Below are positions 41,686 through 48,819 of a DNA stretch of 64,000 nucleotides, one piece after another. The notes beneath the pieces were generated by a model. That model saw only the letters and a program-made list of their open reading frames with translations. It was not told the origin of the DNA and did not search any database. Positions within the stretch are counted from its first letter, which is position 1. Every line of letters begins with the position of its first letter. A program made the position numbers and the translations under genes. This DNA is from Kondoa subrosea (lineage: Eukaryota), in NCBI GenBank assembly GCA_039545335.1, contig BCIN01000002.1, positions 3,143,564 to 3,207,563 of the forward strand. Reading direction: 5' to 3'.

Positions 41686-43090
41686 ATGTGTTCTTGTTCA
41701 GTAGAATTCTACTTCAACTTGGCCCGCATTGAAGTGTTGGATTTCCGTGCTTGTTCTTCTTCTTTCCTGCTTAACTATCTGTGCATCATTCGAGCTGGTC
41801 TCGTGAAAGCAACCCTTGTCAAGCTGGTTATTGCCAAGAAATGTTGTATCAAGCAGAGTTCGTTTCTCCTGATATTGTTTTTGATAACGCTATTCGGGTC
41901 TATCACGCTTTGCGTTGTAAACAGGTAGCAAACAGAAGTAATAAGAAAGAACGTAAACTTAAGAAAGAATTACAAGATTATGCTCGAGCTTTACAACCTG
42001 CTTTGGAGAAATATCAGAAGAGCATGACTTTACTGAGGGACGCTGCATGTCAAAGTGAGATATCAAATTATGATCGCAAGTAAAAGGAGCTGATCACAAT
42101 ACGCTAGCTGAAACGTCTACTTTAGATAAGCATGTTACACCAAGATCACCTCGCAGGTCGAAGATCTTGGAAAGGGTCGTTAGTCGTTCAATACCTATAC
42201 CGGTACAGACAGAAGAAGTTGAACAAGAACATGGACTATATGAATTGGCACCAAGTGCAGAGGAGACCTCAGCAGATTCAGATACATCTCCTTGTTCGTC
42301 TTTATGAATCAATACTTTCGCATACTAAGATTTGACAACAGCTGGTCAAATGTACACTTCATCAATCAAGCAAGAGGGCAGATCTGAGGCATTCGAAGTT
42401 CCCTTTGATACAAAGCGAGAAGAGCGGGAGCTGGAAGAGTCTACTCCCTCGCCGAAAGTCAAACAAGAAGATTCATTCCAGCGCTCAATACCTGCAGAAG
42501 AGATCAAAGTCGAGATGGATGAGCAGAAGAGACAAGAGTCACAAGCTATTGCGAATGAAGACTATCATGATTTGCCCGAAGCTGAAGACTGGCACCATAA
42601 ACAAAAACAGTTTGCCTGCGATCAGCTGGAAGAGCAGAAAGCATCACCAAGGGTGTCAACTTTACCGTCCGAAAAACCCGTCAAGCGTATATTACAACGA
42701 AAGTTGTCTACAGCTCGAGTCTGGATCAAACCTGATTGTGAGTGTTGCACTTCTGCTACCTACTATGTAGCTTACAATGACTGCAGATAAACGCGTTCGC
42801 CGAGAGCTTGAGGCAGTTGCTCATTTACCTAGAGGAAGAGGACACTCTCGCTGGACACACGAAGACCTACTTCAACCTGGCTTCAATTCCGATCGAGCAA
42901 CTATGGCAAGATTAAGAGAAGTACTGGATCAATTACCTACGGCGCTCAAAAGCATCAAGTACCACATGAGGTCAAACCTGAAGAAGAATGAATTGGTGAG
43001 TTCTTTAAACTCACTGGAGCTCTCGTCGTCGATCGCAATCAGCTCAGAACCTATGTGTCTAGGTCGCATTGTTCGAATGCTATGTTGAGC
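41686..43090 (+). CDS. Hypothetical multi-exon protein (coiled-coil, acidic region, CECC motif); boundaries uncertain
   Basis: A chain of plus-strand ORFs (41781, 42332, 42777) separated by intron-like gaps. No family recognised. Confidence 0.45.
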
Positions 43091-43569: not shown

Positions 43570-44796
43570 TTATTGCAAGGGAGCAGCAAAGCCAGACCAA
43601 CGTTTCGAAAGACGCCATCGATCGATGAATGATCTGTCGCTCATCGTTCCAGATCGTCCCAAATGTAGAAGCGGAACATGACTGGCTAAGGCGAGCCTAT
43701 CAGTATGCGAAAGACTTCGATATCTTGCTTGAGCTTGTTCAAAGGAAACAGCGCCAAGGGAATCAGACAGCTGCAAGATATCTGACAGGTTGAGTGGCAG
43801 TGACCGAACTTCATATGCGAATGTACGCAAATCACGAGTGTTTCTTGCGACCAGCGAGACATCTGTGCTGAACGTATGAGCTCCAGGAAAAAGCGTTATA
43901 GTCAGACTTACGGTTCCGCAGATAGGCTTCCAATTCCAACACCGCAATTTCCCAAGCACATTCGGATCCTTGAAGTATAGTCATGCAGTTTTCGATGATC
44001 TTAGAAGGTGCTTTATACGTGACAAACAGGTGTCTAGCTGATAAGAGCTTGTATATATAGATGTAGCTTGTAGCAGTGTCGAGCTTCAGGCCGAATTGCG
44101 CAAGAAGATGACCGATCGCTAAAATTGCTGTTCTATGGTTGCCATCTTGGAACGCTTGTTTTCTTCTAATGGAAAAGCTAAGATGAGAAGCTTGTAGACA
44201 GGCCGAATGATAGCCAGGGAAAGCCTGTGAGCTTCGTTCAGAGACTGACGAGTATAATGTCGAAAGTACTTACCAGAGGCACTGTAATATCGTCATCGCG
44301 ACGAGCGCCTGATTCCACTTCAATCTGCCTGACCATCATCTTGCGCTCCAAGTTCAAGTCCTCATACCCGCCATGAACACCGCCTGTTACAAACCTGTTC
44401 AACTGCCATAAACGATATGGATCTTCAGTAGAGAGATGACCAGTAAGAACGTTCTCATATGCTAGCCCAGCGTAGACTTGATCACCGTAGCGCGAAAGGA
44501 CACTGGAGTGTAGGGGATAAGCAAGTGAACTTGAAGTAAGGCAACGAATGCTTTGGGCCGGTTGAGCAAAGGAAGGCTTCGAAAAGGCAATTGAATGCGA
44601 CCAGGGACTAGAGGCTGTTGTACTGGTAATGTCATCTGATTTACTACTCAGAGAGGTGATACGCGTGTGGAACATAGGCGTTTCTGTCGAGGATCTCAGC
44701 ACGAGCAGCACGAGCACATACTTTCAAGCAATACGTACGAGATATTTTGCTCTGCTCCATGGCCGCAAGTACCAACGAAGCACCTGAGGAATGCAT
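43570..44796 (-). CDS. Fido-domain (Doc/Fic-like) protein with variant motif QAFQDGNHRTA
   Basis: ATG at 44796 and three GT-AG introns. An exon missing from the ORF track reads AFPGYHSACLQASHLSFSIRRKQAFQDGNHRTAILAIGHLLAQFGLKL, with the motif at 44126-44158. Confidence 0.75.
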
Positions 44797-46791
44797 TGTC
44801 TCGTAATCTGCTCGAGCAATGAGTCATTAGACTGTTGCCTGGGGAAGTACATACTCAAGTATTCTTTCCGCAAAATTCAGCTGAGAAAGAGGACTGAAGA
44901 TAGTATAGCTGAATTGAGAGTGCTGCCTTGATTCCTGAGCGATATAGGTTAGGGCTCGGAAAGGTCTTGATCCAGCAAAGGAGGTGAAGATGACAAATAA
45001 AGCTAGCGAACTATGACACTGCGCAAATCAAAGATGGTAGGTCGAAAGAAGCGTCGGTCCAACGAATTGGCCCATCGTGTAGCGCGGTCGAAATACAGAT
45101 TTTCGAAATATCATGAGGTAGGAAGTCTAGGCATGCATCAGGCTTCTCAAGCGTATTAAGATAGATGGTCGCCGCCAATACTGCTTAGCTTGACAAGTGG
45201 CTCTTAGAAATCAAGCCTTGACCTTCTTGTCCCAAACTTCCAACTTGCTTCCGAACACCGAAATCAAGCACATCTTAGCTGGTTCGTAGCCGATACTGCC
45301 ACGCTGCCTATCGAGTCTCAGTCATTGATACCAATTGCCTTTTCATAATTGTGCTGGACCTTGGAAGGACGAAATTCGAAATTCGAAATCTCAATGTTTA
45401 GGACTTGCTCTGCTTCCCTATGATTCCAAGACTGCGCTCATGTTGTCGTCAAAGATACTTGCTAAGACTCTCTGTGCTGGCGTCTGTCTGATGCTTCAAT
45501 ATACCTATGCAAATTGCTCAATTACGCGACCGCGCTTGCCTTCCCCTTCTCTTGCCCTCTCAATCAGCGCCAGCCGTGTCGCCTCCGACAAAGATCTCTT
45601 GATCTGCTTTCATGGGTACCACACTGGCCTAAAGTCTGTTATGCTGCTGCTCATAGCGTTATTACATCACCAATTGGCAATAACCCCTTAAAGCCATTCA
45701 AGAATGGCTGTATAAGCCTACATTTGCCTGTAGACTGTTCTGCATTCTTATACGTCCCGGCTACAACTGGGCTTGGCAGCATCACGTCGAAAACTGCCTA
45801 GTGTGCCATCTTTTTTGTGCGAGCGATTTTAAATGGCTCTGTGTATCGCACGTGTGGCGAAAAGCGCACAAAACTGGGCATTTTCAGTCTTCCTCTCTTT
45901 TCTTTCTCATCATCTCCTTGCAGTGCGAGTCGTTGAGCTCTGTGGGCAAAGCGGATAGTTTTCAAGTTATCTTGTCTGCAGAGTAATCAAGTCTCTGCCT
46001 TTGCTGCTCTTAAGGACTGCCTGACCGAAAATCAAGTGCATGCCTTTATTAAAGGAGATGATCGTTTTGGGATTTTTTGTTTGTTTGGGTTCAAGATTAC
46101 ATTGCGGTCAGCTTTTCTATTGCTGCCTTTTCTTATGGTTGATCACTATCTAGATACTTCAACGATCAACGCTCTCTATACTATAGCTGTTTTTGTTGGG
46201 ATCCATTGTACATGCGCTGTCAGGTTTGCTTAGTCAGCAATGTATTTGTAGACTGTTCGCGTCCTATCTTGAAGTGATCTCTGCGTATTCGTCTGTGCTC
46301 TTCGAGCTAAGCTAAAGGTTCCTCGCCTCTTGCTTCGCCAATCAGACACCTTTCGATATTTTCCCTGTGTCAAGTTGCTCTCAACCATCATTATTACACT
46401 CGTTCAAGCTCTCACTCACTCATTTACATCTCAGTCCACTCTGGAACCTTCAAAGAAGCTGTTCTTCAATCTGAAGCCTTTTGTAATCAGGTATGTACAC
46501 CGGAGCCCCTAAACTCAAGATCGCAAGATTGAAGGCAAGGTGTGCAGTTCTTTGCTGGTCTACGCTTTCTCTGTCCTGTTCTTGTCTACGCTCTACCTGT
46601 CGTCCTGTTCCTTTTTGGCTCAGCCAATCATTAGCTGTTCTCGGCTTGCTATCTCTCCTTGTGAGCTTTTGTACTTCTGGCAAATATAGCAAGCGCTGAG
46701 GATACACTGTCTCATACCAGTACCATATCTCTGTCCTGCGCACGGATCTAGCTGCTCGTCAATCTATCTCAATCGTCTAGTTTCAACCAAA

Positions 46792-48126: not shown

Positions 48127-48495
48127 AAGAGACAATTCAACTAGTAGCAGATATCAAGATCTTCTCATCCCACTCTCCTTGCTTCCACCTTAACAACACC
48201 ACCTTCCTTTATTTACTATATTATCGAAACCTAATACTCTGTACTATTTCGTCGTATGGTCTTCTTTGGCTCTAATACTTGTATGATTCATTCATGAAGG
48301 GTAATCAGCACAGCATCAAGGGTCAACAAGAGGAATTGTTTCATTTTATTTATTGTCAATGTCATCGGAATATTCTGTAGCATCTGTACCCCGCATCAGT
48401 CGTTATTTGTGAGCCTAGCTCGGCTTTGTAGAAGCAATCGTTTGCATTTCACATCATTGTCGTTTTGCACTCACTTCTTTCCATTGACTTTGCTT

Positions 48496-48601
48496 GCTTC
48501 AGTTGTCCTTCATTACTACTCTTTCTGATAAGACATCAAGAGAGTTTGGCTTCAGTTGTCCTTCATTACTACTCTTTCTGATAAGACATCAAGAGAGTTT
48601 G
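48496..48601. repeat. Perfect 53-bp tandem duplication in an intergenic / 3' region
   Basis: 48496-48548 is identical to 48549-48601 (gcttcagttgtcc...gagagtttg). Confidence 0.97.
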
Positions 48602-48819
48602 CACAATTAGGGCCTTAAGCGAGACAGAAGCACACAGAGCACATGCAACAGTTGGTAAGAGGAAGACAGTAAGGAACAGTCAGGAAAATGAGCCAGTAAA
48701 GACGATGCACAAATAGGGAAAAGGTCAAGTGAACAAAAACATAGTATGACAATGCAAAGAGAGGGAAGAAACAACACTGCTGCTACTCAAGAGCCGGATT
48801 ACAAGCAACTCTTGCTAGA

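What the first reader, a model, noticed from the sequence alone, without database searches (positions are those of the whole stretch)
43570..44796. Intron-containing fungal Doc/Fic-like gene with a rewired active site
Seen: the spliced protein has Doc-like organisation (LWQLNRFVTGGVHGGYEDLNL...FPGYHSACLQASHLSFSIRRK-QAFQDGNHRTA-ILAIGHLLAQFGLKL). Established: Doc toxins carry HxFx(D/N)(G/A)NKR, where the His is catalytic and the Lys is linked to kinase rather than AMPylase chemistry. Here the His is Gln and the Lys is His. Inference: either a pseudo-enzyme or a Fido enzyme with a relocated catalytic His and different chemistry, domesticated in a eukaryote. The motif exon is invisible in the ORF track.
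Basis: partly seen in the sequence, partly recalled or inferred. Interest (0 to 1): 0.7.

Follow-up and report, generated by a model that had tools for sequence, protein, structure and literature searches.

The report
Fungal histidine-less Doc-like protein family
This intact four-exon fungal gene belongs to an overlooked, conserved fungal family related to bacterial Doc/Fic toxin-like proteins that had already lost their catalytic histidine, so the odd active site is mostly inherited, but what these proteins do remains an open and testable question.

Summary
The gene is real: four exons (44796-43570, minus strand), three 49-55 nt GT-AG introns, 357 aa, no stop; motif Q179-A-F-Q-D-G-N-H186-R. 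It is not a lone oddity. Seventeen eukaryote-type sequences (two named Mycena species, unnamed metagenome genes in eukaryotic surroundings) form one clade (99/96) with invariant R-x-x-Q-x-[FL]-x-D-G-N-H-R; relatives show dN/dS 0.03-0.12 around the motif; a full-length relative folds as Fido (top 19 structural hits all Fido, Doc Z 8.0). But the His-to-Gln change is old and published: bacterial Doc clade D2, Qx[FY]x[DE][GV]NKR (PMC4454073), and the fungal clade is sister to plasmid-borne Q..K proteins in a tree with both trait columns masked (100/95). Bacteria show Q..K, Q..R, Q..H and even H..H, so position 8 behaves as a basic Lys substitute, not as a relocated catalytic His. Best reading: a D2-derived, His-independent nucleotide-using enzyme with Doc-like inverted substrate binding (0.5); pseudo-enzyme 0.25; relocated His 0.12. 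No expression data and no activity data. Fungal Doc-like transfers were noted in 2015 without a motif; I found this family and its NHR motif in no paper searched. The scan had not noted it before. New variant of a known kind; moderate interest.

The parts
44739..44796 (-). Exon 1 (start codon; residues 1-19, poorly conserved N-terminus)
   Evidence: ATG choice inferred, no homology support
44684..44738 (-). Intron 1, 55 nt, GTACGT...CAG, phase 1
44274..44683 (-). Exon 2 (residues 20-156): Ser/Thr-rich leader, then conserved Y85-G86 and first Fido helix with N115
44379..44492 (-). Conserved exon-2 segment R84-G121 (YG ... QLNRFVTGG)
   Evidence: hhalign probability 90, E 1.6e-6 to family alignment A5; Y85 11/12, G86 11/12, N115 12/13
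44225..44273 (-). Intron 2, 49 nt, GTAAGT...CAG, phase 0
   Evidence: P0001 and P0002 homology starts at this edge; L007 has an apparent phase-0 intron 19 codons before the Gln versus 22 here
43912..44224 (-). Exon 3 (residues 157-260): Fido catalytic loop and following helices
   Evidence: Pfam Fic E 3e-4; 56-63% identity to P0001, P0002
44126..44167 (-). Signature motif R176-x-x-Q179-A-F-Q-D183-G-N-H186-R187-T-A189
   Evidence: R176, Q179, D183, G184, N185, H186, R187, A189 in 17 of 17 eukaryote-type rows
43863..43911 (-). Intron 3, 49 nt, GTAAGT...CAG, phase 1 (alternative acceptor 43868 gives 320 aa)
   Evidence: P0001/P0002 homology ends at this edge
43570..43862 (-). Exon 4 (residues 261-357 and stop): C-terminal helical extension
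   Evidence: adds about 9 bits and extends profile cover to 232 of 242; weak alone, E 0.11
44808..44854 (-). Possible 47-nt 5' UTR intron (GTATGT...CAG)
   Evidence: splice signals only; no in-frame upstream ATG; unverified

Best explanation
The gene encodes a cytoplasmic, single-domain Fido protein of a fungal family descended by horizontal transfer from the bacterial Doc D2 (Gln) lineage, since furnished with introns and N- and C-terminal helical extensions. It most likely remains an enzyme that binds a nucleoside di- or triphosphate with Mg2+ in the conserved D183/G184-N185/R187 pocket. His186 stands in for the Doc lysine: a bulky basic side chain at position 8, with no Arg at position 12, favours the inverted (Doc/AnkX-like) orientation, so the group transferred is a phosphate or another group X from NDP-X rather than AMP. 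Gln179 hydrogen-bonds and positions the target hydroxyl but is not a base; deprotonation would be substrate-assisted. Family-specific R176, Y214, S218, R220 and N115 shape the pocket or target site. Shown: gene model consistency, family, motif conservation, purifying selection in relatives, fold of a relative, tree position. Inferred: splicing, expression, nucleotide binding, orientation, catalysis, direction of transfer, target (EF-Tu/eEF1A-like GTPase is only a guess from Doc).
For: Phosphate/metal-binding residues invariant in 17 of 17 rows spanning 24-32% identity for the distant ones. dN/dS 0.03-0.12 in the 59 codons around the motif versus 0.27-0.66 elsewhere in 7 pairs of relatives. AlphaFold model of relative P0008 (pLDDT 81.8): ranks 1-19 of 48,161 chains are all Fido, Doc 3dd7 Z 8.0, rmsd 3.5, 114 of 123 aligned. 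Profile A6 finds a Doc-family chain best (9vzc E 2e-4; P1 Doc 3k33 E 0.065). Tree with positions 1 and 8 masked: eukaryotic clade 99/96, sister to 7 plasmid Q..K proteins 100/95. K/R/H series at position 8 in bacteria. Lys8 forces inverted ATP in Doc (PMC4177925, passages). A Fido without the motif, AvrB, is an active NDP-sugar transferase (PMC10866546, passages). D2 authors also argue for retained activity (PMC4454073 section 6).
Against: His-to-Ala abolishes auto-AMPylation of VopS and Drosophila Fic (PMC2686095, passages), and no tested Gln-1 Fido was found in searches. Conservation of a binding pocket is also expected of a nucleotide-binding pseudo-enzyme. Homologues were collected with motif-bearing profiles and the pattern DGNHR[TS]A[LI]L, so invariance of D, G, N, H, R is partly built in (Gln was not in that pattern and is in 16 of 16 loci). 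dN/dS and the fold come from relatives, not from this gene; best Z 8.0 is within the range the tool calls common for helical proteins and Foldseek gave no E<=0.001 (best 0.15). The donor is not pinned: a single origin with the Solirubrobacterales Q..H clade is not rejected (AU p 0.126), and profile scores do not separate bacterial groups (medians 15-22 bits).
Confidence: 0.5

Rival explanations
1. Pseudo-enzyme: the family keeps the Fido pocket to bind a nucleotide, a phosphorylated or AMPylated protein, or a GTPase, and acts as sensor, inhibitor or scaffold without catalysis.
For: Loss of the general-base His that is essential in tested Fic enzymes. Added N- and C-terminal helices in the model of P0008 could be interaction surfaces. 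The same genome keeps a separate canonical HPFxDGNGRxxR Fic gene that a dead relative could regulate.
Against: Gln, not a random residue, is fixed at position 1 across fungi and several bacterial clades; one bacterial member nested in the Q..H clade carries His again (P0017), suggesting catalytic geometry is kept; AvrB precedent.
Confidence: 0.25
2. One reading: His186 is a relocated catalytic base (or phospho-His intermediate) giving a new Fido chemistry.
For: His186 is the only conserved His of the 15 in the protein, 17 of 17 rows; Q..H may have arisen twice, in fungi and in Solirubrobacterales (best trees), which would fit selection for imidazole once Gln was fixed.
Against: Many Gln-1 proteins have no His in the motif (Q..K 18, Q..R 3; 6 of 7 plasmid loci with a readable Q..K motif); P0017 has both histidines; bacterial Q..H is sister to Q..R (98/87), a conservative basic series; H invariance is partly a search artefact; two origins are not statistically shown. 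Position 8 lies in the phosphate-binding nest, away from the position-1 base (own knowledge; not measured here).
Confidence: 0.12
3. Role-level rival: a retained toxin used in conflict (antibacterial, self/non-self or programmed cell death), held in check by a partner or by its own extensions, rather than a housekeeping modifier.
For: Descent from toxin-antitoxin-like mobile genes (plasmid records); sparse, patchy occurrence and fast divergence outside the core; F-box and LRR neighbours in some relatives.
Against: Single copy among housekeeping genes: Tim17, BRE4, TBC, CRAL-TRIO, SDH2-type Fe-S, Hid1, tyrosine phosphatase; weakly hydrophobic N-termini in the 7 sequences examined (best 11-residue mean 0.8-2.0, a crude scan); no conserved neighbour seen.
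Confidence: 0.2
4. Decaying remnant of a transferred gene, or a mis-assembled gene model.
For: No RNA evidence obtained; exon 1 and exon 4 have little or weak homology support.
Against: 357 open codons over three canonical introns; 56-63% identical orthologues with the whole motif and the same exon edges; all family-invariant residues present; GC like the window (0.47 versus 0.45).
Confidence: 0.05

Closest known systems
Doc clade D2 (Khater and Mohanty 2015, PMC4454073), consensus Qx[F|Y]x[D|E][G|V]NKR
   Same: Gln for the catalytic His; F-x-D-G-N and Arg9; single Fido domain; sister group in the masked tree is a set of plasmid proteins fitting this consensus; function untested in both.
   Different: His instead of Lys at position 8; invariant Arg at -3 and Y/S/R residues downstream; eukaryotic, with introns in some members; 215-357 aa with extra helices; D2 was described as restricted to bacteria.
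Phage P1 Doc kinase (PDB 3k33, 3dd7; TIGR01550)
   Same: Fold (Z 8.0, 114 of 123 residues, for relative P0008); bulky residue at position 8; no Arg at position 12.
   Different: Lacks His1 and Lys8; below the TIGR01550 cut-off (15.8 versus 38.65 bits); no antitoxin operon; EF-Tu phosphorylation not shown.
Fungal Doc-like group E4 (PMC4454073 supplement)
   Same: Fungal Doc-like proteins ascribed to transfer from bacteria; Fido in 'a few fungi' also in PMC2686095.
   Different: The passage gives no motif or species; whether E4 is this family could not be told from the text (its figure was not visible).
Solirubrobacterales Q..H Doc-like proteins (P0011, P0013, P0014, P0016-P0021, L004, L005; database label 'prophage maintenance system killer protein')
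   Same: Same Q-x-F-x-D-G-N-H-R-T loop and Asn in the first helix.
   Different: About 155 aa; different C-terminal half; groups with Q..R proteins, not with the fungal clade, in the best trees, though a common origin is not rejected.
AvrB/AvrC Fido rhamnosyltransferases
   Same: Fido fold active without the canonical His motif (PMC10866546); AvrB at Z 5.6.
   Different: AvrB lacks the motif altogether and needs no divalent cation; this family keeps the Asp-Gly-Asn-x-Arg loop.
Canonical Fic AMPylases (FicD/HYPE, VopS)
   Same: Fido fold and D-G-N-x-R loop.
   Different: No His1, Gly8 or Arg12; the genome's own canonical Fic gene (L093) is unrelated at the level of the family profile (no hit).

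Membership tests
Fido superfamily | Helical Fido core fold | tested here: met
   For full-length relative P0008: ranks 1-19 all Fido, Z up to 8.0; top 10 Foldseek rows all Fic, none with E<=0.001. Transfer to this gene rests on the 86.9-bit profile match.
Fido superfamily | Fold of this gene's own product | tested here: inconclusive
   Only exon 3 (104 aa, 3-row alignment) was folded: pLDDT 57; searches with it were uninformative.
Pfam Fic PF02661 | Score at or over the 24-bit gathering cut-off | tested here: inconclusive
   Exon 3 alone 22 bits, E 3e-4; 21 of 31 rows of A6 match at E<=0.05; the spliced protein was not scanned.
Doc kinases (clade D1, P1 Doc) | Catalytic His at motif position 1 | tested here: not met
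   Gln179; Gln in 17 of 17 family rows.
Doc kinases (clade D1, P1 Doc) | Lys at position 8 | tested here: not met
   His186.
Doc kinases (clade D1, P1 Doc) | F3, D/N5, G/A6, N7, R9 and no Arg at position 12 | tested here: met
   F181, D183, G184, N185, R187, I190.
Doc kinases (clade D1, P1 Doc) | Adjacent Phd-type antitoxin gene | tested here: inconclusive
   No such Pfam hit among 35 long ORFs at 31.7-58.1 kb; small or intron-split partners would be missed.
Doc kinases (clade D1, P1 Doc) | Phosphorylates EF-Tu with inverted NTP | not testable with these tools
   Needs biochemistry.
Doc clade D2 | Gln1 with x[FY]x[DE][GV]N and Arg9 | tested here: met
   QAFQDGN-R in the window; Phe at position 3 in 13 of 17 rows, Leu in 4.
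Doc clade D2 | Lys at position 8 | tested here: not met
   His in 17 of 17.
Doc clade D2 | Groups with Gln-type bacterial Docs in a tree | tested here: met
   Sister to 7 plasmid Q..K rows 100/95; all 44 Gln-lineage rows against 20 H..K rows only 86/67; 131 columns, long branches. That these plasmid proteins are the paper's D2 is judged from the consensus alone.
Doc clade D2 | Restricted to bacteria | tested here: not met
   Intron-containing fungal gene; named Mycena members; eukaryotic neighbours TFIIA, F-box, NIF in metagenome loci.
Canonical Fic AMPylases | H1, G8 and R12 of HxFx(D/E)GNGRxxR | tested here: not met
   Q179, H186, I190.
Canonical Fic AMPylases | Inhibitory (S/T)xxxE(G/N) helix | tested here: inconclusive
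   Pattern match at residue 230 here and in P0002 only, 2 of 17 rows; may be chance. Pattern recalled, not from a call.
Fungal Doc-like group E4 | Identity with the sequences of that group | not testable with these tools
   Supplement text names no sequences or motif.

The most novel reading that the evidence does not exclude
Fungi domesticated a His-less Doc into a new kind of protein-modifying enzyme, in which the fixed Gln/His pair and the family-specific Arg, Tyr and Ser residues support a chemistry not yet seen in Fido proteins (transfer from an NDP-linked donor, or His186 as base or phospho-intermediate), acting on a fungal target; the same Q..H solution arose independently in soil Actinomycetota.
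Probability: 0.2. Interest if true: 0.75.

Novelty: new variant of a known kind. Interest (0 to 1): 0.42.

Why it matters
Gln-type Fido proteins are widespread (548 plasmid records match one of them) and were flagged in 2015 as of unknown function; I found no experimental test. A conserved eukaryotic branch under purifying selection argues that the His-less site does something useful outside a toxin-antitoxin operon, and gives tractable proteins for asking whether Fido enzymes can work without the general-base His. It also adds a fungal family that sits below Pfam's cut-off and is annotated as hypothetical. It does not overturn anything until activity is shown.

Tried and rejected
RNA evidence: no RNA holder listed; no evidence either way, and no reads were laid. 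Search for longer homologues with exon 3: none of 193 candidates (weak). First metagenome scan: 0 of 346 pattern matches confirmed. Viral vector idea: L002/L003 (2 of 62) are antisense chance matches without the motif; further viral scans confirmed 0 of 14, 0 of 74, 0 of 5. P0003 and P0004 are repeat proteins, dropped. Exon 3 against PDB sequences: one irrelevant hit. Exon-3-only model: pLDDT 57, no Fido row listed by Foldseek or VIA; uninformative for a fragment lacking the first helix. Acceptor 44232 for intron 2 rejected: frame lost at 173 aa. Idea that the fungal family came directly from the Solirubrobacterales Q..H clade: not favoured by two trees, not rejected. ESM Atlas: Fic-type clusters at 0.90-0.93 with low recognition scores, leads only. 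Paper searches (DGNHR, 4 irrelevant) showed no description of this family or test of a Gln-1 Fido; the library lacks most subscription papers. Earlier scan notes: nothing bearing on this gene. No complex prediction was run, as no partner is indicated.

Full report
Observation. The best model has exons 44796-44739, 44683-44274, 44224-43912 and 43862-43570 and introns of 55, 49 and 49 nt, giving 357 codons without a stop. The motif reads R176-R-K-Q179-A-F-Q-D183-G-N-H186-R187-T-A at 44167-44126: Gln where Fido enzymes have the catalytic His (position 1) and His where Doc has Lys (position 8). Exon 3 hits Pfam Fic at E 3e-4, 22 bits, just under the cut-off, and the NCBIfam Doc model at E 0.012. 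A profile from 7 homologues, excluding the window and its two close relatives, prefers the 357-aa form (86.9 bits, positions 25-232 of 242) to the 320-aa (76.7) and 286-aa (77.5) forms, and among 866 window ORFs picks out only the exon-3 and exon-2 frames at E<0.5. Exon 4 alone is weakly supported and exon 1 not at all. No RNA run was listed, so splicing is inferred. The gene is single copy in an 18.9-Mb, 27-contig genome among housekeeping genes, including the BRE4/ArAE_2_N transporter type, which with the intron style marks a fungus (fungal assignment partly own knowledge). Its GC matches the window.

The family. A search of 1.84 billion representatives gave 4 hits, 2 real: P0001 and P0002, 63 and 56% identical, with the same Q..H motif; their homology starts and stops at the edges of exon 3, as expected of shared introns. 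A profile of the three found 13 proteins: these two, eight eukaryote-type proteins including Mycena amicta and Mycena floridula hypotheticals, and three bacterial-type proteins. A metagenome scan with the pattern DGNHR[TS]A[LI]L confirmed 16 of 61 matches; all 16 have Gln at position 1, which the pattern did not demand; neighbours include TFIIA, F-box, NIF phosphatase and an amino-acid transporter; most are intronless, L006-L008 are interrupted, and L007 has an apparent phase-0 intron three codons from intron 2. In 17 aligned eukaryote-type rows (the window, 10 proteins, 6 of the 16 loci, near-copies left out) R176, Q179, D183, G184, N185, H186, R187, A189, L191, Y214 and S218 are invariant, with R220 15 of 17, N115 12 of 13 and Y85-G86 11 of 12. 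The searches were seeded on the motif, so part of this invariance is built in. Seven pairs of close relatives give dN/dS 0.22-0.37 overall and 0.03-0.12 in the 59 codons round the motif; this was not measurable for the window gene itself.

Fold. The exon-3 fragment folded poorly (pLDDT 57) and its searches were uninformative. The full-length relative P0008 with 31 rows folded at pLDDT 81.8. Against 48,161 chains ranks 1-19 were all Fido proteins, with a Mycoplasma Fic and P1 Doc tied at Z 8.0 (Doc: rmsd 3.5, 114 of 123 residues); Foldseek's first ten rows were all Fic, none at E<=0.001. The Z is moderate, but rank consistency and the sequence profile, whose best PDB hits are Doc-family chains (9vzc E 2e-4, 3k33 E 0.065), agree. 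The Doc core covers residues 59-196 of P0008; helices before and after it are additions.

Where the odd residues come from. The Gln is not new. Khater and Mohanty (PMC4454073; section 6 read whole) describe Doc clade D2, 45 bacterial sequences with Qx[F|Y]x[D|E][G|V]NKR, untested. Their supplement (passages) notes fungal Doc-like proteins, group E4, transferred from bacteria, with no motif given; Kinch et al. (PMC2686095, passages) mention Fido in a few fungi. In bacteria I found every combination. Among 28 published loci from 301 Actinomycetota genomes the motifs were H..K 24, H..G 2, Q..H 1, Q..K 1, H..E 1 (best 30 loci plus L024, 3 unpublished dropped). Among 30 loci (29 from 301 genomes of the order of G001, plus plasmid L055) they were Q..K 18, H..K 8, Q..R 3, one spurious and one without a match (chosen by a Q..H profile, so enriched for Gln). 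Solirubrobacterales carry Q..H, and P0017 carries H..H. In a tree of 64 rows and 131 columns with positions 1 and 8 masked (23 long or redundant rows of the earlier 81-row set dropped, 6 plasmid rows added), the eukaryotic family is one clade (99/96), sister to 7 plasmid Q..K proteins (100/95); bacterial Q..H is sister to Q..R (98/87); P0017 sits inside the Q..H clade (unmasked tree agrees). Forcing the two Q..H groups together costs 12.95 log-likelihood units but is not rejected (AU p 0.126), branches are long, and profile scores do not single out a donor. So: descent from the Gln lineage is well supported, the donor and the number of origins of His8 are open, and transfer from bacteria to fungi is inferred from nesting and from rooting on H..K Docs.

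How it most likely works. The residues that hold Mg2+ and phosphates in Fido enzymes are kept (roles of Asp5, Gly-Asn and Arg9 partly from PMC4454073, partly own knowledge). In Doc a Lys at position 8 forces ATP in backwards and makes the enzyme a kinase (PMC4177925, passages). His at 8, reached through a K/R/H series and found both with and without His1, is best read as a Lys substitute, and Arg12 of AMPylases is absent, so inverted binding is predicted. With Gln at 1 there is no general base; His-to-Ala kills tested Fic enzymes, but AvrB lacks the motif and is an active rhamnosyltransferase (PMC10866546, passages). I put 0.5 on a His-independent transferase of phosphate or another group, 0.25 on a nucleotide- or protein-binding pseudo-enzyme, 0.12 on His186 as a relocated base and 0.05 on decay. 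Whether it serves as a conflict toxin (0.2, a separate axis) is open: it is single copy, has no clear signal peptide in a crude scan and no visible antitoxin. The genome also holds an unrelated canonical Fic gene.

Comparison and novelty. It works most like Doc, is closest in descent to clade D2, and is a member of neither by their defining residues (no His1 or Lys8; not Lys8 and not bacterial). Searches showed no paper on this family, on a DGNHR Fido motif or on the activity of a Gln-1 Fido; PMC8097203, PMC11291939 and PMC10532202 (term look-ups only) added nothing. The library omits most subscription papers, and the figure that shows group E4 was not visible, so E4 may be this family.

Noticed in passing
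G000:C2:2185147-2185248 minus strand (L093, about 1354-2541): A second, intron-split Fic gene in the same genome with the canonical motif HPFHDGNGRVSR (Pfam 40.5 bits); a short tandem duplication with N letters lies in its 3' part (L093 about 982-1382).
   Followed up: partly
L004 2804-3040 and L005 2726-3040: In both Solirubrobacterales loci a small ORF overlaps the start of the Q..H Doc-like gene and the two share a C-terminal stretch; no Pfam hit. Candidate antitoxin, though the overlap may explain part of the likeness. Transposase-like ORFs lie near both loci.
   Followed up: no
P0017, P0025: Bacterial proteins nested in the Q..H clade that carry His at both motif positions 1 and 8, an apparent return of the canonical His.
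   Followed up: partly
L088 301-921: Acinetobacter plasmid proteins annotated as zeta toxin family match a Gln-type Fic protein over about 190 residues (E 1e-4) but show no readable motif: possible Fido-zeta fusion.
   Followed up: no
window 41775-43085 (+): Convergent neighbour made of charged, low-complexity ORFs without a Pfam hit in the 6 ORFs scanned; an unannotated gene.
   Followed up: no
window 48430-48610: ORF translations repeat the same peptides twice in shifted frames, suggesting a short tandem repeat of about 50 bases.
   Followed up: no
window 44808-44854 (-): A 47-nt intron-like element just upstream of the start codon; probably a 5' UTR intron.
   Followed up: partly
L010-L021: One metagenomic lineage carries at least two versions of the intronless family gene (dS about 0.22-0.25 between them), beside F-box or LRR-type ORFs.
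   Followed up: partly
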